DNA from: a virus
Reading direction: 5' to 3' (one strand)
Virus record (IMG/VR): IMGVR_UViG_3300045988_033250
Coordinates: 1-35,562 of that record
DNA length: 35,562 bases
Positions 7,874 to 21,823 of this stretch are shown here, piece after piece. Both the position numbers and the translations under genes were made by a program. The notes below the pieces were generated by a model. The model ran no database searches and was not told the origin of the DNA. It saw only the letters and a program-made list of their open reading frames with translations. Position 1 is the stretch's first letter; each line of letters begins with the position of its first letter.

Positions 7874-8463
7874 TGGAAACATTCAGCATTAAAGGTGGTA
7901 CGCTTGAATATTTCGATGATACTCATACATATCTGTATGATGGGCTTATATTGCCAAGCGTTACGCAGATTCTTGGTGTAAAATATAGAAATGATTATGC
8001 AAGCGTGCCTCCTGCCGTGTTGAATAATGCGGCTAAAAGAGGTACGGCAGTACATAAGGCAATCGAAAACTTTAATGTTTCGGGCTATGATGATGGAAGC
8101 GAAGCAGTGCGAAACTTTAAGTTTTTGCAGAAACAATACGGATTCGAGGTTCTGGACAGTGAGTTTCCGATTGTGATTTTCAAGGATGATATGCCGATAG
8201 CGTGTGGCAGACTTGACATGACAATGCTGATGGATGGTGAAACTGGCATTGCGGACATTAAAACAGTCAGTTCTTTAAACAAGGAAAAGATCGCATATCA
8301 GCTGAATTTATACCGCATCGGATTGATGCAAAGTTACGGAGTTGATGCAAAATTCCTGAAGATCATACATATTAGGAATGGTATCAGGAAAGTTGTTGAC
8401 TGCCCTGTAAACGAGGGCATGGCATTGGAAATCATAGAAGAATATTACAGAGGAAAGGAATAA
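7870..8463 (+). CDS. PD-(D/E)XK family exonuclease (RecB/Cas4-like fold, recombination partner of ERF)
   Basis: Motifs GTAVHKAIE, GRLDM, IADIKT (D-x-K) and QLNLYR are in the order typical of phage PD-(D/E)XK exonucleases. ATGA overlap with the upstream gene. Confidence 0.75.
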   Translation: MMETFSIKGGTLEYFDDTHTYLYDGLILPSVTQILGVKYRNDYASVPPAVLNNAAKRGTAVHKAIENFNVSGYDDGSEAVRNFKFLQKQYGFEVLDSEFPIVIFKDDMPIACGRLDMTMLMDGETGIADIKTVSSLNKEKIAYQLNLYRIGLMQSYGVDAKFLKIIHIRNGIRKVVDCPVNEGMALEIIEEYYRGKE

Positions 8464-9092
8464 TGTTGAAATCTGTCAAAAATTACAATTCATTATATGA
8501 AGTGAATGAAAAAGGAGAAATAAGAAGCTTATATCATTGGAATGGTCACAAGTACGAAAAAAGAAAAAAGCCATATATTCTAAAGCAATCAAATACAACA
8601 ACAGGATATAAAAAGGTTGAGCTTGTGAAAGATGGAAAGAGAAAAAGCATAAAGGTTCATAGAATAGTGGCAACTGCTTTTATCCCAAATCCTATGAATA
8701 AGCCATATATAAATCATATAGATGGAAACCCTATAAATAATTGTGTTGAAAATCTTGAATGGTGTACTCAACATGAAAATATTGTACATGCATATAAAAC
8801 AGGATTGATAAAAATATCACACATTACAAAAGAAGAATTGCAGAGATATATAGAAAATGGGCTTACATATAAGCAAATAATGAAAAAAGAACATATATCT
8901 TTTAAGAGGTTACAGAATTATTACAGAATGTATGGGTTGAGGAATCAACACAATAAATACAATATTGATTTGGAACAACTTAAAAATGATTTTAAAAAAG
9001 GAATGACGAACAAAGAACTTGCAAAAAAATACAATTGTTCAAATGCACTTATTGCAACACGAAAATATCAATTAAAAAAAGGGAGAATATAA
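8463..9092 (+). CDS. Free-standing HNH homing endonuclease (NUMOD4 + HNH_3-like)
   Basis: YEVNEKGEIRS (NUMOD4-like) and HRIVATAFIPNP...INHIDGNPINNCVENLEWCTQHEN (HNH_3). The gene is locally very AT-rich and is inserted with TAATG overlaps at both ends, between the exonuclease and ssb. Confidence 0.85.
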   Translation: MLKSVKNYNSLYEVNEKGEIRSLYHWNGHKYEKRKKPYILKQSNTTTGYKKVELVKDGKRKSIKVHRIVATAFIPNPMNKPYINHIDGNPINNCVENLEWCTQHENIVHAYKTGLIKISHITKEELQRYIENGLTYKQIMKKEHISFKRLQNYYRMYGLRNQHNKYNIDLEQLKNDFKKGMTNKELAKKYNCSNALIATRKYQLKKGRI

Positions 9093-14331: not shown

Positions 14332-14641
14332 GACATGGAATATTGAAGAATTGACTGGATATACCCCTAGAACAACGTTCTATGAGGACTTCAGCATTGC
14401 AGATCATTTCGGTGCTTAGGCAGTCCGTGATACTTATTGCAGAGCGTTCAACGCATGGCAGAACAATATTGAATACATGACAGAGCTTGTTATGGTTCTG
14501 AACTGGAAGATCAGCGAGCATTACAGAAGGAACTTCATGCTTGCTGAGATGTATGATGAACTTTGGCGAAAGGCTGATGAATGGGTTTTTGACCATTTCG
14601 ATGGTGAGGACTTACAATATTTCTTGAGAACAACGGACTAG
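14321..14641 (+). pseudogene. Early gene interrupted by one in-frame TAG (14417-14419)
   Basis: MKIKTWNIEELTGYTPRTTFYEDFSIADHFGA*AVRDTYCRAFNAWQNNIEYMTELVMVLNWKISEHY...LRTTD*. There are 73 further open codons in the same frame after the TAG, ending right at a terminator. Confidence 0.65.
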
Positions 14642-14660
14642 GAAAACCTAGTCTTTTTTT
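14636..14660 (+). terminator. Rho-independent terminator
   Basis: gactagg-aaaa-cctagtc followed by T7. Confidence 0.8.
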
Positions 14661-14695
14661 ATCGAAAAAATTGCCAAAAAATGTCATGAAAACGT

Positions 14696-14724
14696 TTGAC
14701 TTTTCTATATTATAGTATTATAAT
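14696..14724 (+). promoter_or_regulatory. Near-consensus sigma-A promoter for the accessory gene block
   Basis: -35 TTGACT (14696-14701), 17-nt spacer, -10 TATAAT (14719-14724). Confidence 0.7.
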
Positions 14725-16488: not shown

Positions 16489-16695
16489 ATGATGAGGGTG
16501 AATGAAGTGCTGGCTAGAGTTAGCGAAGAAGAAATCATCATGATACGTACTGAAGCATTCTGTATTCAATGTACAAAGAATCAGTTAGTGCATGATGATG
16601 ATTTTATCAATATGAAATTAAAAGATAAAATCGTAACTCATTTAGGAGTTAATCATTTTAATGGTTCGAATGGAATTTTAATAAAATGCATTTAA
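16489..16695 (+). CDS. Hypothetical protein
   Basis: 68-aa ORF after GGGGGGAG. Confidence 0.6.
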   Translation: MMRVNEVLARVSEEEIIMIRTEAFCIQCTKNQLVHDDDFINMKLKDKIVTHLGVNHFNGSNGILIKCI

Positions 16696-17376: not shown

Positions 17377-17505
17377 ATCCCTATATTGATATTCCAATTT
17401 TAAAAACATTAGTTACACGGACTAATCAAAACGTGGCTCATAAGAAAATTCTATTAAAAACCTATTTAGATTTTATTTCTATAATCTCATTTTCAATATA
17501 GGGAT
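17377..17505. repeat. Perfect 13-bp inverted repeat enclosing a 103-bp AT-rich intergenic segment
   Basis: atccctatattga (17377-17389) and tcaatatagggat (17493-17505). An inner hairpin attagt-tacacgg-actaat and a TATAAT at 17480-17485 lie between them. Confidence 0.85.
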
Positions 17506-17525
17506 TCATTAAGGAGTGATCACAA

Positions 17526-17711
17526 ATGAAAAAAATGAATAAAAACAGGGCACTATGCCTTTTATCAGACATATGTATATTAATTATTCTTATTTCCATG
17601 GTATTGACAGGCAATAACTGGAATTCAACAGAAGTGAAAGTCTTCTGTTGCAGTTCGCTTTTTATGAATATTTTGTTCGTGCAGTATTTCTTGATCATGG
17701 GAGGAAGATAG
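17526..17711 (+). CDS. Small two-pass membrane protein (61 aa)
   Basis: RBS AAGGAGTG lies 7 nt upstream. Two hydrophobic segments: ALCLLSDICILIILISMVLTG and VFCCSSLFMNILFVQYFLIMG. The antisense 78-aa track ORF lacks an RBS. Confidence 0.6.
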   Translation: MKKMNKNRALCLLSDICILIILISMVLTGNNWNSTEVKVFCCSSLFMNILFVQYFLIMGGR

Positions 17712-17712
17712 C

Positions 17713-17787
17713 ATGGATTTTATCGGAATCTTACTCATATCAGTATCAATAGTTCTGATAGCGATTGGATATTTCTGGAAAGAATAG
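17713..17787 (+). CDS. 24-aa hydrophobic peptide
   Basis: MDFIGILLISVSIVLIAIGYFWKE, preceded by GGGAGGAAG 6 nt upstream. It has a single predicted TM helix and is not in the ORF track because of its size. Confidence 0.5.
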   Translation: MDFIGILLISVSIVLIAIGYFWKE

Positions 17788-17806
17788 AACTAAATAAATA
17801 AAAAAA

Positions 17807-17945
17807 TGGCTCGTGAGGTCGTTCGAGGGTGTCAGCACAAAACGCAATACTTATAATATGACTTATAATTTCCCAATACTTTTACTGAAAATCGTTTCTC
17901 CTAATACTTTTAAGTGTTGGCATTCTCAAACGACTTTATGAGTCA
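17807..17945 (+). ncRNA. Long strand-specific hairpin RNA (31-32 bp stem, 75-nt AU-rich interior with three AAUACUU motifs)
   Basis: Arm 17808-17838 pairs with 17914-17944 at 30 of 31 positions. Eight pairs are G-U, which would be A-C mismatches on the minus strand. AATACTT occurs at 17846, 17875 and 17903. Confidence 0.55.
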
Positions 17946-17984
17946 GATAACTATATATTTGAAAAGATAAATGAGAGGTAAAAA

Positions 17985-18155
17985 ATGGCAAAACTTGTAA
18001 AAATGAAATACAAAACGCTAGGTGGTGACGTAAAAATCAACACGTATAATGCGACAATATCAAAAAAGATTGTGGAGGAATCTGGGCTTGATCCCGAAGA
18101 AGAAATCACAGTGAAGGCTGAAAAAGGGAAAATCATTATCGAGCAAAAAAGATAA
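17985..18155 (+). CDS. AbrB/MazE/SpoVT-family small DNA-binding protein (56 aa)
   Basis: MAKLVKMKYKTLGGDVKINTYNATISKKIVEESGLDPEEEITVKAEKGKIIIEQKR fits the swapped-hairpin SpoVT_AbrB pattern (...ip..i.e..gl..gd.v.v....g.iii). RBS GAGAGGT. The antisense 71-aa track ORF is rejected. Confidence 0.6.
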   Translation: MAKLVKMKYKTLGGDVKINTYNATISKKIVEESGLDPEEEITVKAEKGKIIIEQKR

Positions 18156-18205
18156 AATAAAGGCAAAGAGAACGTGGAACAGATTAAGAAGGAGGATGAA
18201 GAATT

Positions 18206-18445
18206 ATGAATAATTCACATAAATTATTAAATGGTGTTGAAGGAATTCTTGTCAAAGACTTTAATCCAAAGTACAAAACTATCGAACTGATTGAAAGCAG
18301 AGAAATATTTCCATTTGGAATGCCTATAGGCTTGTTTCATTTCAAAAAGGTGAAAAAAGACTACGGAGACAGAAAAATTGCTTCTGTGATGGATTTTAAC
18401 GATACTCACACAACGTCAATAGCTATAGAGGTACTTAAATCATGA
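18206..18445 (+). CDS. Hypothetical protein
   Basis: 79-aa ORF after AGGAGGA. Confidence 0.65.
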   Translation: MNNSHKLLNGVEGILVKDFNPKYKTIELIESREIFPFGMPIGLFHFKKVKKDYGDRKIASVMDFNDTHTTSIAIEVLKS

Positions 18446-18795: not shown

Positions 18796-18808
18796 AATTA
18801 CTATTGAG

Positions 18809-18834
18809 AAAAGGGCATAAAAACCCTTTTTTTT
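18809..18834 (+). terminator. Weak intrinsic terminator
   Basis: aaaaggg-cataaaaa-ccctttt followed by further T residues. Confidence 0.45.
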
Positions 18835-18903
18835 GGTAATAATTAGAGTATAATTACAGTAGAGAAAGAGGGTAAAAAAATGTTAGAAAAGGAGGGCAAA
18901 AAA

Positions 18904-19468: not shown

Positions 19469-20503
19469 ATGTACGGTATTGATATTTCAAAACACAATGG
19501 CAATATTAATTTAGAGCCATATAAAGGGCAGTTTGTAATTATTCGTGTTGGTTATGGCCACTTTCATTTAGACGAAAAATTTGAAAGAAACGTGAATGAG
19601 TGCAAAAGGCTAGGCATTCCATTTGGCGTTTACCATTATTCATACGCTTTAAATGAGGCAGAAGCAGAAGAAGAAGCAAGAGGCGTACTAAACGCAATCG
19701 CAAAATACAAGAACGATATCAGAGTTGGTGTATGGTTTGATATGGAGGACGCAGACGGCTATAAAAAGAAACATGGCTTCAAGTTCTCTAATTCAACAAT
19801 TGCTCCAATTTGTTATAAATTCTGCAAGATGATTGAGGACGCAGGATATTATTCAGGTATTTACACTTCTAGTTCATGGCTTGACTATGTAAAAGGATTA
19901 AATGACAGATTCGACAAATGGGTGGCTAATTGGGGCAAGAATGATGGAACACAGCACACAAACACTTCTCAATATGGCACATTACAACAGTACACTTCTA
20001 AACCGTTAGACAAGAACGTCATGTATGCAGACCTTTCAAGATATTCAAGAGGTAACACAACACAACCTCAGCAAAAACCAATTGCTCAGATTGCTGATGA
20101 AGTAATTGCAGGGCAATGGGGTGATGGAGCTGACAGAAAGAAACGCTTAACCGACGCAGGATATGATTACAATGCTGTTCAGAATGCAGTGAATGCAAAG
20201 CTTGCAAAGAAATCTAATGAAGAGATTGCACAGGAAGTCATTGCTGGAAAGTGGGGCAATGGTGATGATCGCAAACAGCGTTTAACAAGTGCAGGATATA
20301 ACTACACTGTAATACAAGAAATTGTTAATAAATTGACGAGCGCTAATAAAGCAAGCAAAGCAGTATATTACACTGTTAAAAGTGGTGATACATTAAGTGG
20401 TATTGCATCCAAGTATGGAACAACATATCAAAAGCTAGCTCAAATGAACGGTATCAGAAATCCTAACAAGATTTATCCTGGACAGCGTTTAAGAGTGAAG
20501 TAA
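19469..20503 (+). CDS. Endolysin: GH25 muramidase + two CW_7 repeats + LysM
   Basis: [11 protein letters not shown]...IIRVGYG...GVYHYSY (GH25). Two repeats of I(A)[25 protein letters not shown] (Cpl-7 type). C-terminal [30 protein letters not shown]...IYPGQRLRV (LysM). Confidence 0.92.
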
Positions 20504-20883
20504 TGGCACAAGGCTATTATTCATGCAGTAGATGTGGGAAGATACATCCGAAAGGGTATGTATGCAAGGTAGAAAAGAAACACTACAAGTGCAGCTACAA
20601 AGAGTCAAGGCTGAGAAGTAAAAGCGCTTGGACAGATAAAAGCAAGCAGATTAGAGAGGATGCAAACTATCTATGTGAAGTATGCAAAGACAAAGGTATT
20701 TACAATTATAGAAATGTAGAAGTACATCACATAGAGAAGCTGAAGGATAAGCCAGACTTATGGTTGGAAGATGATAACCTAATATGCTTATGCAAAGATT
20801 GTCACAGGATGGCTGATGCAGGTATGATTGACAAAGAGTATCTGAAGAAGTTAGCAAGGCAGAGAATAGACAGGCTTAAATGA
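20503..20883 (+). CDS. Packaging-associated HNH endonuclease
   Basis: CSRCGK...CEVCKDKG...VEVHHIEKL...NLICLCKDCH is an HNH motif. It lies immediately upstream of the terminase genes, as in HK97-like cos phages. Confidence 0.88.
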   Translation: MAQGYYSCSRCGKIHPKGYVCKVEKKHYKCSYKESRLRSKSAWTDKSKQIREDANYLCEVCKDKGIYNYRNVEVHHIEKLKDKPDLWLEDDNLICLCKDCHRMADAGMIDKEYLKKLARQRIDRLK

Positions 20884-21090: not shown

Positions 21091-21823
21091 ATGCGGAAAA
21101 ATTTTGCGTGTATCGTAATATCACATGGCAGACCTGAGTGCAGTACGGTAAAGGTGCTTCGTGAGTGTGGATATACAGAAAAGCAGTGGGGCAAGCCATG
21201 CAAGGAACTTGACAAAAGTATTATCAGGCGTATTCCACTGCGTTTCACATACAACAATAATTATTTCAATGCAAAGTACCAAGGCATTCCTGTTGATGGT
21301 TATTCTAAGGCAGTAGAAAGGCTACTAGAAGGCGTTGAAGTTGTGACAGGGTATAAATGTTCAAGCTCAAGTAAAGAGTGGCTAAAAAGGGCAAAAAAAC
21401 GTGGTTCTGACAGGTGCTATTGACGAATATTACAATTACTGTTATGGTACGTTGGAATATCGAAGCCTGAAATTTGAAACTGAGGAATTGAAGGAAGAAA
21501 ATTATCAAGGCAATGCTGTCGTGAATTATACCGATGCTAGAGTGCCGTATACTAGAGTTATTGAGCACAAGCATTTTGCAGGAGTGAAGACACCGACAAC
21601 CATTATCACGAAGGAATATCCGCAGAAATGGGATATCGGTAAAGAGCGATACTATCCGATTGAGGATGAAAAGAACAAAGCACTGTATCAGAAATACAAA
21701 GAACTTGCAGACCGTGATGGATTGATCACAGTTGGAAGGCTTGCAGAGTATAAATATTACGATATGGAAGATACAATCAAAAGTGCATTTAAGGCGGTGA
21801 GAGAATTATGCGAAAAACAGTAA
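21091..21823 (+). pseudogene. glf: 5'-truncated, frameshifted UDP-galactopyranose mutase remnant
   Basis: GYTEKQWGKPCKELDKSIIRRIPLRFTYNNNYFNAKYQGIPVDGY then (other frame) VVLTGAIDEYYNYCYGTLEYRSLKFE...QGNAVVNYTD..VPYTRVIEHKHF...EYP...YYPI...GRLAEYKYYDMEDTI align with roughly the C-terminal 220 residues of Glf. The FAD-binding GxGxxG N-terminus is absent. The frame switch lies at the A5/A7 runs 21384-21399. Confidence 0.8.

What the first reader, a model, noticed from the sequence alone, without database searches (positions are those of the whole stretch)
17807..17945. 137-nt strand-specific long hairpin RNA with three AAUACUU motifs in its AU-rich interior
Arm 17808-17838 pairs with arm 17914-17944 at 30 of 31 positions. 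Eight of the nine non-Watson-Crick positions are G-U pairs on the + strand, which would be A-C mismatches on the minus strand. Only one is a true mismatch. This bias argues that the structure is selected at the RNA level (or single-stranded + strand level), not as a DNA palindrome. The 75-nt interior is AU-rich and carries AATACTT at 17846, 17875 and 17903 (spacing 29 and 28 nt), plus ACTTATAAT twice. No U-run follows, so it is not a terminator. No ORF with an RBS explains the region. It lies between a 24-aa hydrophobic peptide gene and an AbrB/MazE-like gene. Possibilities include an RNase III-processed regulatory RNA, a protein-sequestering or antitoxin-like RNA, or a single-strand origin-like element that works in one orientation.
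Basis: seen in the sequence. Interest (0 to 1): 0.7.

Follow-up and report, generated by a model that had tools for sequence, protein, structure and literature searches.

The report
Phage RNA hairpin enclosing a promoter
Between two small genes of a temperate gut phage lies a 137-base stretch that folds, mainly on the coding strand, into a long hairpin; it varies less than the genes around it and has a promoter-like sequence in its loop, so it is most likely an mRNA processing or insulating signal, but its function is untested.

Summary
Positions 17808-17838 pair with 17914-17944 at 30 of 31 positions: 22 Watson-Crick, 8 G-U and 1 C-A. As + strand RNA the fold is -46.8 kcal/mol (z -6.8). The minus strand gives z -1.2 and single-stranded DNA z -1.6. 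It is the only stem of this quality in the 35.5-kb window.

There is no Rfam match and no GenBank phage match. I found 37 distinct variants in 76 loci, all from one lineage of about 37-kb temperate siphophages in human-gut metagenomes.

- The element is single-copy and always in the same orientation.
- It always lies 15-38 nt downstream of a 24-25 aa hydrophobic-peptide ORF.
- It varies less than the flanking ORFs.
- Stem changes are mostly GU/AU/GC exchanges, but divergence is too low for significant covariation.
- The strand bias is modest (p about 0.02-0.06).

Its -35 lies in the left arm and its -10 in the loop. Transcripts started there would therefore lack the left arm.

My best reading (about 0.35) is a cis-acting double-stranded RNA element, a likely RNase III substrate, that forms only in read-through transcripts and is nested with a restart promoter. 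The sequestering-RNA, antitoxin and single-strand-origin readings are weakly supported or unsupported. Function is unproven.

The parts
17713..17787 (+). 24-aa hydrophobic peptide ORF (MDFIGILLISVSIVLIAIGYFWKE), with GGAGG at 17700-17704. It is always found directly upstream of the hairpin.
   Evidence: ORF list. The ORF is intact at 24-25 aa, without indels or stops, in every locus that holds enough upstream sequence, while the adjacent spacers carry indels. A codon-degenerate search for the peptide in IMG/VR returned only contigs that carry the hairpin, 17 of 17. No Pfam, NCBIfam or PADLOC family matches. There is no third-codon-position excess of variable columns (10/9/11), so coding is inferred from frame and length conservation only.
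17788..17807 (+). A-rich spacer of 15-38 nt in relatives, ending in a conserved A7-8 T tract that abuts the stem.
   Evidence: The last 10 nt show 96% column identity, while the rest is indel-rich.
17808..17838 (+). Left (5') arm of the hairpin. Its apical part contains the -35-like GTGTCA.
17839..17913 (+). AU-rich interior of 75 nt with no conserved secondary structure. The 5' 32 nt are almost invariant, and the 3' 43 nt are variable with many indels.
   Evidence: Fraction of variable columns is 0.16 for 17839-17870 and 0.51 for 17871-17913. RNAalifold predicts no interior pairs.
17914..17944 (+). Right (3') arm of the hairpin. Its apical 14 nt, GTGTTGGCATTCTC, are identical in all variants.
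17829..17857 (+). Sigma-70/sigmaA-type promoter-like site: -35 GTGTCA (17829-17834), 17-nt spacer, -10 TATAAT (17852-17857). The implied start is near 17864, inside the loop.
   Evidence: Promoter scan, 10 of 12 matches. The site and its 17-nt spacing are present in 36 of 36 variants. The only -10 changes are CATAAT and TATACT, which keep A2 and T6. Sites scoring at least 10 of 12 occur about once per 2.4 kb of strand in this phage, so the match alone is only suggestive.
17849..17869 (+). 9-nt direct repeat ACTTATAAT-N3-ACTTATAAT. The second TATAAT would lie at about +1 to +6 of the putative promoter.
   Evidence: It is the only exact TATAAT-N6-TATAAT in the window.
17842..17912 (+). Three 14-nt direct repeats (ACGCAATACTTATA, TCCCAATACTTTTA, TCCTAATACTTTTA) that carry the AATACTT cores.
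   Evidence: The middle copy is degenerate in about a third of the variants.
17985..18155 (+). Downstream 56-aa AbrB/MazE/SymE-like gene. This is context, not an obligate partner.
   Evidence: It also occurs without the hairpin in the sister sub-lineage. In L092 the peptide and hairpin are followed by an HTH gene instead.
18806..18854 (+). Context: a terminator-type hairpin (GAGAAAAGGG...CCCUUUUUUUU, 18806-18834) followed by TATAAT (18849-18854), just upstream of the holin gene. It would end any unit started inside the long hairpin.
   Evidence: Fold of -15.5 kcal/mol, z = -5.0. It is conserved in relatives with and without the hairpin.

Best explanation
The element is a cis-acting structured segment of the phage's own + strand mRNA. 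It overlaps a promoter.

The 'middle' operon appears to start at the strong promoter at 14696-14724 and has no predicted terminator before this point. Its transcription runs through the 24-aa peptide gene and then through both arms. Those arms close into a 31-bp G-U-rich duplex around an unstructured 75-nt loop.

I infer that this long-range duplex is a substrate for the host's double-strand-specific RNase III. Cleavage would cut read-through transcripts between the peptide gene and the downstream AbrB-like gene. That would set the stability of the peptide message from its 3' end and uncouple downstream expression from upstream transcription.

A sigmaA-type promoter is nested in the same DNA, with its -35 in the apical left arm, its -10 in the loop and a start near 17864. 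RNAs begun there carry only the right arm, cannot form the duplex and so escape processing. They would express the AbrB-like gene and the next one or two genes as far as the conserved terminator at about 18806-18834.

Shown:
- The hairpin and its + strand bias.
- Its conservation above that of neighbouring ORFs.
- Its strict linkage to the mini-ORF.
- The invariant promoter-like site and the geometry that leaves the left arm out of locally started RNAs.
- The downstream terminator.

Inferred:
- That the region is transcribed as described.
- That RNase III cuts the stem.
- That the promoter fires.
- That the purpose is to discriminate transcripts by where they started.
For: Structure:
- + strand RNA z = -6.8, minus strand z = -1.2, single-stranded DNA z = -1.6.
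- It is the only such stem in the window, and shuffles never reach it.

Evolution, from 27 variants in alignment A1 and 36 in the later count:
- 94.6% of stem cells pair.
- 18 of 31 pairs are invariant. Eight vary on one side only, as GU to GC or AU.
- Three pairs show double or alternative repairs: 8/142 GC-GU-AU, 12/138 UA-UG-CG, and 17/133 C-A repaired to U-A in 8 variants and to C-G in 1.
- The + strand is more stable than the minus strand in 26 of 27 variants.
- Stem sites with GU on the + strand number 13, against 4 with AC.
- Loop length varies between 71 and 85 nt, as a stem-only constraint would allow.

Conservation. Fraction of variable columns:
- arms 0.29
- 5' loop 0.16
- peptide ORF 0.44
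- AbrB-like ORF 0.70
- spacers about 0.8

Promoter:
- 10 of 12 match with the optimal 17-nt spacer.
- No indel between -35 and -10 in any variant, and the key -10 positions are kept.
- Indels begin just downstream of the implied start.

Transcription context:
- All genes here are on the + strand.
- The upstream promoter and terminator pair is at 14635-14724.
- The conserved terminator and -10 lie before the holin gene.

Substrate plausibility:
- RNase III accommodates about 22 bp of dsRNA and makes a double cut in intramolecular stems (PMC6212723).
- B. subtilis RNase III cuts duplexes formed by long-range (>100 nt) intramolecular pairing in mRNAs (PMC11780869).

Module behaviour:
- The peptide and hairpin stay together across at least five different upstream junctions and two different downstream genes.
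- The element is single-copy per phage.
Against: - There are no expression data of any kind. Transcription, the nested start site and RNase III cleavage are all inferred.
- Covariation is not significant. In the shuffle control, 47 of 500 shuffles reach the observed paired fraction and 56 of 500 reach the covariation score. All variants are close relatives.
- The strand bias is modest (p 0.025-0.06) and could partly reflect the strong G>C skew or C-to-T bias of this strand.
- In many relatives the minus-strand fold is also stable, and in L020 it is the more stable of the two.
- The four apical G-U pairs and the right-arm apex are invariant even though strengthening changes would be allowed. 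That hints at sequence-specific recognition that this model does not explain.
- The conserved A-tract 5' of the stem is unexplained.
- A promoter match of this quality occurs by chance about once per 2.4 kb of strand.
- The sister sub-lineage manages without the element.
- The host is unknown, so its RNase III and sigma factor are assumed.
Confidence: 0.35

Rival explanations
1. The element works purely at the DNA level. The conserved core is a promoter or operator region: the -35, the -10 and the tandem ACTTATAAT sites, possibly with AATACTT iterons. The arms are inverted protein-binding sites or a decaying palindrome. On this view the G-T excess is a by-product of strand-asymmetric mutation and not of selection on RNA.
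For: - The most conserved segment is exactly the -35 to about +10 region, with a fixed 17-nt spacer.
- The apical arm sequences are invariant even at wobble positions, as expected for sequence-specific sites.
- The + strand has a strong G>C skew.
- Covariation is not significant.
Against: - As duplex DNA the arms are only 71% complementary.
- The distance between the arms varies by up to 14 bp among variants, so helical phasing is not kept.
- Basal-stem polymorphisms are mostly GU/AU/GC exchanges that keep + strand pairing, with two or three compensated pairs.
- Base composition alone predicts a GU to AC ratio of about 1.2 to 1, not the 13 to 4 sites or 236 to 40 cells observed.
Confidence: 0.2
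2. The peptide and hairpin form a type I toxin-antitoxin-like or self-limiting toxin module. The 24-aa membrane peptide would be toxic, and the adjacent RNA structure, or an RNA made from it, would keep its synthesis low through RNase III-dependent decay.
For: - The peptide has the size and shape of type I toxins: one hydrophobic helix and a charged C-terminus.
- Peptide and hairpin co-occur strictly as a unit of about 240-260 bp that moves between contexts.
- Prophage type I toxins in B. subtilis are silenced through RNase III (PMC3531473).
Against: - No conserved minus-strand promoter exists in or next to the module, and no antisense RNA can be defined.
- Loop complementarity to the peptide's ribosome-binding region is no better than shuffled controls.
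- No toxin family matches.
- The peptide gene has no promoter of its own inside the conserved block.
- Co-occurrence over 260 bp may be mere linkage.
Confidence: 0.12
3. The element is a stand-alone trans-acting or protein-sequestering small RNA. Its loop motifs (AAUACUU, CUCCU/UCCC) would bind a protein or target mRNAs. This was one of the first reader's options.
For: - The 5' and 3' ends pair in a closing stem, as in many stable RNAs.
- The loop carries repeated motifs.
- Nucleotide conservation is high.
Against: - No promoter was called upstream of the stem and no terminator after it.
- The middle motif is lost in about a third of the variants, and the 3' loop is indel-rich and unstructured.
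- No Rfam family matches, even at E <= 10.
- The best predicted target in the phage (16478-16514, z = -4.9) lies in a gene found in only 1 of the 20 hairpin-carrying loci compared, and there at 35% identity.
Confidence: 0.08
4. The element is the inert remnant of a mobile element such as a MITE or IS end. The 31-bp terminal inverted repeats would enclose the old transposase promoter, and the whole would be carried along by linkage.
For: - Imperfect 31-bp inverted repeats surround about 75-85 bp.
- A -35 inside the left repeat with the -10 just inside is a common IS layout (my own knowledge).
Against: - It is single-copy per genome and always in one context.
- Searches of viral, metagenome and genome collections with an arm pattern found it only in this phage lineage, and all genome hits were chance.
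- No target-site duplication is present.
- It varies less than the flanking ORFs, which argues against neutrality.
Confidence: 0.07
5. The element is a minus-strand intrinsic terminator. The complement of the stem is followed by U7-8, which is the conserved A-tract at 17798-17807 on the + strand.
For: The A-tract next to the stem is conserved, and the minus-strand fold is moderately stable in many relatives.
Against: - No minus-strand genes or conserved minus-strand promoters lie to the right.
- The minus-strand stem is mismatched at its base and has a loop of about 100 nt.
- No local hairpin precedes the U-run.
- The phage's real terminators are short GC stems followed by U-runs.
Confidence: 0.04
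6. The element is a single-strand DNA signal, such as an sso-like or Frpo-like origin or promoter, or a 6S-like RNA polymerase decoy.
For: The structure is orientation-specific, with a -35-like duplex and a single-stranded TATAAT in the loop.
Against: - The DNA fold is not significant, z = -1.6.
- This is a dsDNA phage with an integrase, a DnaC-like loader, SSB and ERF, and no rolling-circle Rep.
- The + strand lacks the ssoA loop hexamer TAGCGT, a motif I recall from memory.
- There is no 6S match in Rfam and no internal stem beyond the bubble.
Confidence: 0.04

Closest known systems
Lambda sib / tI retroregulation of int (RNase III hairpin completed only in read-through transcripts; from my own knowledge)
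   Same: A long hairpin downstream of a gene forms in full only in transcripts of one origin. RNase III cleavage there controls the upstream message from its 3' end. The setting is a temperate phage.
   Different: In lambda, discrimination comes from termination inside the hairpin versus antiterminated read-through. Here it would come from a promoter nested inside the hairpin. There is no sequence similarity, and cleavage is untested here.
IS10/IS50 'protection from outside transcription' by fold-back inhibition (from my own knowledge)
   Same: The start site of the internal promoter lies between two complementary segments. Only transcripts that enter from outside contain both segments and fold.
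   Different: In the IS elements the 3' segment covers the transposase ribosome-binding site and blocks translation. Here the right arm ends about 30 nt (window copy) upstream of the next gene's Shine-Dalgarno sequence, less in relatives with shorter spacers. Predicted Shine-Dalgarno accessibility is, if anything, higher in read-through RNAs (0.69 against 0.55). This is not a transposable element.
Intercistronic RNase III processing sites of phage polycistronic mRNAs (T7 R sites, SP82; my own knowledge) and long-range mRNA duplexes cut by B. subtilis RNase III (PMC11780869)
   Same: An intergenic, strand-specific, imperfect duplex of at least 22 bp lies within a phage operon. Two helices are separated by a mismatch-prone segment.
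   Different: The loop is much larger at 75 nt and carries a conserved promoter-like sequence. The element is tightly linked to a mini-ORF. No cleavage data exist.
Type I toxin-antitoxin loci of Firmicute prophages (txpA/RatA, bsrG/SR4, yonT/SR6; PMC3531473, PMC5848175)
   Same: A small hydrophobic peptide gene in a prophage sits next to highly structured non-coding RNA, and RNase III is the expected effector.
   Different: No antisense RNA gene or promoter can be found. The complementarity is intramolecular and lies 3' of the ORF.
Intergenic imperfect palindromes that fold better in one transcript orientation (ERIC/REP-type elements; my own knowledge)
   Same: The size class is about 130 nt. 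The palindrome is imperfect with G-U pairs, and a role as an mRNA stability element has been proposed.
   Different: Those elements are multi-copy and dispersed in a genome. This one is single-copy and lineage-specific.

Membership tests
RNase III intramolecular substrate | Continuous or near-continuous dsRNA of about 22 bp or more within one transcript | tested here: met
   The stem has 30 of 31 pairs, and the consensus has helices of 10 and 14 bp. The size criterion is from PMC6212723, and long-range duplexes are from PMC11780869.
RNase III intramolecular substrate | rnc-dependent paired cleavages that leave 2-nt 3' overhangs | not testable with these tools
   This needs end-mapping in wild-type and rnc backgrounds, or in vitro cleavage.
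Intrinsic (Rho-independent) terminator, + strand | Compact GC-rich hairpin immediately followed by a U-run | tested here: not met
   No U-run follows 17944 and no terminator was called. The loop is 75 nt.
Intrinsic terminator, minus strand | Compact hairpin directly abutting the U-run | tested here: not met
   U7 is present, but only a long-range stem with a mismatched base exists. No local hairpin precedes the run.
Sigma-70/sigmaA promoter | -35 and -10 hexamers at 16-18 nt spacing, conserved in relatives | tested here: met
   GTGTCA-17-TATAAT scores 10 of 12. The site and its spacing are present in 36 of 36 variants.
Sigma-70/sigmaA promoter | A primary transcript 5' end about 7 nt downstream of the -10 | not testable with these tools
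   No transcript data are available.
Type I toxin-antitoxin system | Small hydrophobic toxin ORF | tested here: met
   A 24-25 aa single-helix peptide is intact in all variants. Toxicity was not tested.
Type I toxin-antitoxin system | A separately transcribed RNA complementary to the toxin mRNA | tested here: not met
   No conserved minus-strand promoter lies in or near the module. Loop complementarity to the translation start matches shuffled controls.
Type III toxin-antitoxin (ToxI-like antitoxin array) | Tandem near-identical repeats of about 34-45 nt upstream of a ToxN/AbiQ-type endoribonuclease gene | tested here: not met
   Only 14-nt cores repeat, at 28-29 nt spacing, and one copy is degenerate. 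The downstream gene is a 56-aa AbrB-like protein.
Known RNA families (Rfam 15, including 6S, Y RNA and riboswitches) | Covariance-model match | tested here: not met
   There are no hits at gathering thresholds in the window. No hit overlaps the hairpin at E <= 10.
6S-type RNA polymerase-binding RNA | Closing stem, central bubble and a further internal stem-loop, about 180-200 nt in all | tested here: not met
   The element is 137 nt. The interior has no conserved pairing beyond the closing stem.
Invertible promoter (inverton) | Both orientations of the segment between the inverted repeats are found in populations | tested here: not met
   All 37 distinct variants from 76 loci are colinear. The loci were retrieved through the arms or the neighbouring gene and not through the interior.
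MITE / IS remnant | Multiple dispersed copies with target-site duplications | tested here: not met
   The element is single-copy and occurs in one genomic context only. The flanks show no duplication.
Retron msr-msd RNA | An adjacent reverse transcriptase gene | tested here: not met
   No RT domain was found in the ORFs scanned across 4.3-21.8 kb.
Single-strand origin (ssoA type) or single-strand DNA promoter | A stable single-stranded DNA hairpin in a replicon with a single-stranded replication intermediate | tested here: not met
   The single-stranded DNA fold has z = -1.6. The replication module is that of a dsDNA temperate phage.
Structured RNA supported by covariation | Statistically significant compensatory changes | tested here: inconclusive
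   Three pairs show changes on both sides, but the shuffle controls reach the observed values in 37-56 of 500 trials. Divergence is too low.

The most novel reading that the evidence does not exclude
The element is a compact 'transcript-origin discriminator'. One 137-bp stretch encodes both a promoter and a hairpin whose left arm lies upstream of that promoter's start site. RNAs that arrive from the upstream operon fold into an RNase III-sensitive duplex and are severed or silenced. RNAs born at the nested promoter cannot fold and are spared. The module travels together with a possibly toxic membrane mini-protein gene whose message it caps. This would be a self-contained insulator design that, to my knowledge, has not been described for phage operons. 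The nearest analogues are lambda sib and IS10 fold-back inhibition.
Probability: 0.2. Interest if true: 0.6.

Novelty: new variant of a known kind. Interest (0 to 1): 0.4.

Why it matters
If the nested promoter-in-hairpin logic is real, it is a very small, portable way for a phage to insulate one transcription unit from read-through without a terminator. It would also tie the dose of a membrane mini-protein to dsRNA processing. That bears on how temperate phages of Gram-positive gut bacteria time the genes just ahead of their lysis cassette, and it offers a synthetic-biology part. It also shows that a non-coding element can be the slowest-changing part of a hypervariable phage region.

If it is only a processing or stability hairpin, or a promoter with a decaying palindrome, it is ordinary. 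It is confined to one lineage of uncultured gut phages, so its general impact is limited.

Tried and rejected
- Rfam at gathering thresholds and at E <= 10: nothing overlaps the hairpin.
- GenBank phage collection, by near and distant DNA search and by protein search with the AbrB-like gene: no homologue.
- Arm-pattern scans of genome, viral and metagenome collections. Every genome hit was chance, including the two Selenomonadaceae hits. L049, L133, L135 and L136 were chance matches too. The host remains unidentified.
  - TerL is 77% identical to Lactobacillus delbrueckii cos phages.
  - A search with the UDP-galactopyranose mutase fragment gave no host clue.
- A strong minus-strand promoter at 18542-18515 that could feed an antisense RNA ending at the hairpin: absent from all relatives.
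- A minus-strand promoter at 17991-17964, in a SymR-like position: its -10 lies in an indel-variable spacer and is missing in some spacer types and in L092.
- Anti-Shine-Dalgarno or antisense pairing of the loop with the translation starts of the peptide, the AbrB-like gene, p61 or p79: no better than shuffled controls.
- Trans targets elsewhere in the phage. The best hit, the translation start of the gene at 16489, was found in only 1 of the 20 hairpin-carrying loci compared, at 35% identity.
- A switch in which the free right arm hides the AbrB-like Shine-Dalgarno sequence. There is only a small shift in predicted accessibility (0.69 against 0.55), which is not convincing.
- A simple insertion or accessory-cassette reading. 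Phages with the hairpin also differ from phages without it across the upstream region: p59 and p61 are present in 20 of 20 and 0 of 15 loci respectively. These are two sub-lineages, not an insertion polymorphism.
- attC, retron, type III antitoxin, CRISPR-like repeat, cos/pac site and replication origin: each lacks its defining partner or motif, or sits in the wrong place.
- A second long inverted repeat at 17377-17505: it shows no strand bias and was not pursued.
- Defence-system models for the neighbouring small proteins: none.
- PDB sequence search and fold search for the AbrB-like protein: not significant.
Full report
**1.

Reading 17400-18400 shows a left arm at 17808-17838 and a right arm at 17914-17944. 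They pair at 30 of 31 positions: 22 Watson-Crick pairs, 8 G-U pairs and one C-A mismatch at stem position 17.

| Strand and molecule | MFE (kcal/mol) | z-score |
|---|---|---|
| + strand RNA | -46.8 | -6.8 (0 of 200 shuffles as good) |
| minus-strand RNA | -29.1 | -1.2 |
| + strand ssDNA | -14.7 | -1.6 |
| minus-strand ssDNA | -10.9 | -0.1 |

An ungapped scan of the entire window on both strands finds no other 31-nt stem with at least 27 pairs. Twenty dinucleotide shuffles never exceed 27. As a duplex-DNA palindrome the arms are only 71% complementary, and the Watson-Crick-seeded repeat finder did not list them.

AATACTT lies at 17846, 17875 and 17903. These are the cores of three 14-nt direct repeats, and ACTTATAAT occurs twice. 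No U-run follows the stem on the + strand. The ORF that spans the hairpin is not coding, because homologous copies are 133-147 nt long in steps that break the frame.

**2. Genomic setting**

The window is a nearly complete temperate siphophage.
- It carries a large serine integrase, CI- and Cro-like repressors, ERF, SSB, a DnaC-like loader and a Dam methylase.
- Later genes are a Dp-1-type holin, a GH25/CW_7/LysM lysin, an HNH endonuclease, terminase, portal and tail genes.
- TerL is 77% identical to cos-type Lactobacillus delbrueckii phages. No GenBank phage shares DNA with the region.
- All genes around the element are on the + strand.

The transcription signals are as follows.
- A terminator at 14635-14654 and a near-consensus promoter at 14696-14724 open a 'middle' operon.
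- No terminator is predicted between that promoter and the hairpin.
- About 0.9 kb downstream of the hairpin, an A-tract/GGG-CCC/U8 hairpin at 18806-18834 (z = -5.0) is followed by TATAAT at 18849-18854, just before the holin gene.
- That junction is conserved in all relatives examined.

**3. Relatives**

I searched with arm patterns, with the downstream protein and with exact-protein look-ups. These gave 76 loci and 37 distinct hairpin variants.
- All come from about 36-38-kb phage contigs in human-gut metagenomes.
- Hits in the species-representative genome collection were chance.
- A covariance model built from 27 variants finds exactly one copy per carrier, and none in the sister phages that lack the element.
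- Every copy has the same internal orientation, although retrieval did not depend on the interior.

The hairpin is coupled to the peptide ORF.
- Every copy with enough upstream sequence has the 24-25 aa ORF 15-38 nt upstream.
- A codon-degenerate search for the peptide found only contigs that carry the hairpin.
- The gene upstream of the peptide differs among carriers, with at least five junction types that start at or just before the ATG.
- The downstream gene is usually the AbrB-like gene, reached through three different spacers. In L092 it is an unrelated HTH gene, and homology ends about 9 nt after the stem.

The peptide and hairpin therefore behave as one unit of about 240-260 bp. This is not a simple presence/absence insertion. 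Carriers also share p59 and p61 upstream, and non-carriers lack them (20 of 20 against 0 of 15 loci). These are two sub-lineages.

**4. Evidence on what is selected**

Fraction of variable alignment columns (profile):

| Region | Fraction variable |
|---|---|
| 5' 32 nt of the loop | 0.16 |
| Each arm | 0.29 |
| Peptide ORF | 0.44 |
| 3' loop | 0.51 |
| AbrB-like ORF | 0.70 |
| Spacers | about 0.8 |

The hairpin is thus the slowest-changing part of the region.

In the stem, 94.6% of cells pair and 18 of 31 pairs never vary. Eight pairs vary on one side only, as GU to GC or AU. Three show double or alternative repairs:
- 8/142: GC, GU and AU.
- 12/138: UA, UG and CG.
- 17/133: the majority C-A mismatch is repaired to U-A in eight variants and to C-G in one.

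Mismatches cluster at stem positions 12-17. The consensus is therefore a 10-bp basal helix and a 14-bp apical helix, and the loop has no conserved structure.

The shuffle controls are not significant. Between 37 and 56 of 500 shuffles reach the observed values, because the sequences are too similar.

The strand asymmetry is real but modest.
- Cells pair at 94.6% on the + strand and 77.1% on the minus strand.
- 13 stem sites show GU on + and 4 show AC. This gives p = 0.025, or 0.06 after allowing for the G>C skew.
- The + strand is more stable in 26 of 27 variants, with a mean of -44.4 against -34.4 kcal/mol.

Loop length varies by up to 14 nt. A stem-only RNA constraint tolerates that, and phased DNA sites would not.

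**5.

The promoter scan calls GTGTCA-17-TATAAT at 17829-17857 on the + strand, a 10 of 12 match.
- The -35 lies in the apical left arm and the -10 in the loop.
- The site, its 17-nt spacing and the critical A2 and T6 of the -10 are present in 36 of 36 variants.
- Indels begin only downstream of the implied start near 17864.
- The second TATAAT of the ACTTATAAT repeat falls at about +1 to +6.

A match of this quality occurs about once per 2.4 kb of strand here. The call alone is weak, and the conservation pattern is what makes it credible.

The geometric consequence follows directly from the sequence. Any RNA started at this site lacks the left arm and cannot form the hairpin. Any RNA that arrives from upstream contains both arms.

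**6. Best explanation (confidence about 0.35)**

I read the element as a cis-acting + strand dsRNA element of the middle-operon transcript, and a likely RNase III substrate.
- The size criterion of about 22 bp and the double cut in intramolecular stems come from PMC6212723.
- B. subtilis RNase III cuts duplexes formed by long-range (>100 nt) intramolecular pairing in mRNAs (PMC11780869).
- Cleavage would separate and tune the peptide message and cut downstream genes off from read-through.
- The nested sigmaA promoter would restart transcription of the AbrB-like gene, and of p79 and p117 in the window, as far as the conserved terminator before the holin gene.

Transcription, cleavage and promoter activity are all inferred. 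This model leaves three things unexplained:
- the invariance of four apical G-U pairs;
- the invariance of the right-arm apex;
- the conserved A-tract 5' of the stem.

**7. Rivals**

- *Purely DNA-level promoter or operator with a decaying palindrome (0.2).* It fits the invariant core and the non-significant covariation. It does not fit the 71% duplex complementarity, the variable arm spacing or the GU-preserving polymorphisms.
- *Type I toxin-antitoxin-like module (0.12).* It fits the peptide and the tight linkage. No antisense promoter and no complementarity beyond chance were found.
- *Discrete trans-acting or sequestering sRNA (0.08).* It lacks a promoter and terminator. The middle AAUACUU is lost in about a third of the variants, and the loop is unstructured and indel-rich.
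- *MITE or IS remnant (0.07).* The element is single-copy and single-context, has no target duplication and varies less than its neighbours.
- *Minus-strand terminator (0.04).* A U-run is present but the hairpin geometry is wrong, and nothing on that strand needs terminating.
- *Single-strand DNA origin or promoter, or a 6S-like decoy (0.04).* The DNA fold is not significant, the phage has a dsDNA lifestyle, there is no Rfam 6S hit and there is no internal stem.

**8. Comparison with known systems**

In logic, the closest are lambda sib/tI retroregulation and IS10/IS50 fold-back protection from outside transcription (both from my own knowledge). In each, a structure forms only in transcripts of one origin.
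- Unlike sib, discrimination here would come from a nested start site and not from termination.
- Unlike IS10, the right arm does not cover a ribosome-binding site. Predicted Shine-Dalgarno accessibility changes little.

In anatomy, the element resembles intercistronic RNase III sites of phage operons and the long-range mRNA duplexes cut by B. subtilis RNase III. It differs in having a large, sequence-conserved loop and an attached mini-ORF.

It is not a member of any Rfam family. It fails the defining tests for a terminator, type III antitoxin, retron RNA, inverton, MITE, sso and 6S RNA (see the membership table).

**9. Verdict**

This is a genuine, lineage-specific, strongly conserved non-coding element with a plausible and somewhat unusual design. 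There is no functional evidence, and the statistical support for RNA-level selection is only moderate.

I rate it a new variant of a known kind, an intergenic processing or insulating hairpin, with interest 0.4. The most novel reading still open is a self-contained transcript-origin discriminator, at about 0.2 probability.

Noticed in passing
window 18806-18854: A terminator-type hairpin (A-tract, GGG/CCC stem, U8; -15.5 kcal/mol, z = -5.0) is followed by a perfect TATAAT just upstream of the Dp-1-type holin gene. The junction is conserved in relatives with and without the long hairpin. It looks like the true boundary between the middle genes and the lysis/late operon, with a -10 but no obvious -35, which would fit an activator-dependent late promoter.
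   Followed up: partly
window 17377-17406 and 17476-17505: A second long inverted repeat, with a 13-bp perfect core (ATCCCTATATTGA / TCAATATAGGGAT) and about 70-100 nt between the arms, fills the 160-nt gap between the 93-aa and 61-aa genes. It shows no strand bias (z = -1.9 on + and -2.3 on minus). In relative L138 this gap is only about 30 nt.
   Followed up: partly
window 21091-21823: Two overlapping ORFs (21091-21423 and 21401-21823) together look like a truncated, frame-split UDP-galactopyranose mutase. The second ORF matches Pfam GLF positions 85-203 of 203. They sit between the HNH endonuclease and the small terminase gene. A relative (L138) has a ParB_N-like gene at that position. This is probably a decaying moron.
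   Followed up: partly
window 14635-14724: An intrinsic terminator (GGACTAGGAAAACCTAGTCT followed by a T-run) is followed by a near-consensus promoter (TTGACT-17-TATAAT, 11 of 12). It marks the start of the operon that runs, with no further predicted terminator, into the hairpin.
   Followed up: no
window 17801-17810 and 17980-17989: The 10-mer AAAAAATGGC occurs at the 5' edge of the hairpin and again at the start codon of the AbrB-like gene. This could be chance in A-rich sequence, or a trace of the recombination that joined the modules. It is only partly kept in relatives.
   Followed up: partly
L092:300-900 (minus strand of the locus): In one metagenome contig the peptide and hairpin unit is followed by a 67-aa helix-turn-helix gene instead of the AbrB-like gene. 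Homology to the window ends about 9 nt after the stem, which defines the right edge of the unit.
   Followed up: yes
window 17526-17711 and relatives L004-L037, L138: A 61-aa two-helix membrane protein (p61) and a 59-aa protein (p59) are present in every hairpin-carrying locus and in none of the hairpin-less loci, although their order relative to the peptide gene varies. The carriers therefore form a distinct sub-lineage with its own set of small membrane proteins ahead of the lysis genes.
   Followed up: partly
window 8463-9092: An HNH_3/NUMOD4 homing-endonuclease-like gene lies within the recombination/replication module, just upstream of the SSB gene. It is separate from the HNH gene at 20503-20883 that sits upstream of the terminase genes.
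   Followed up: no
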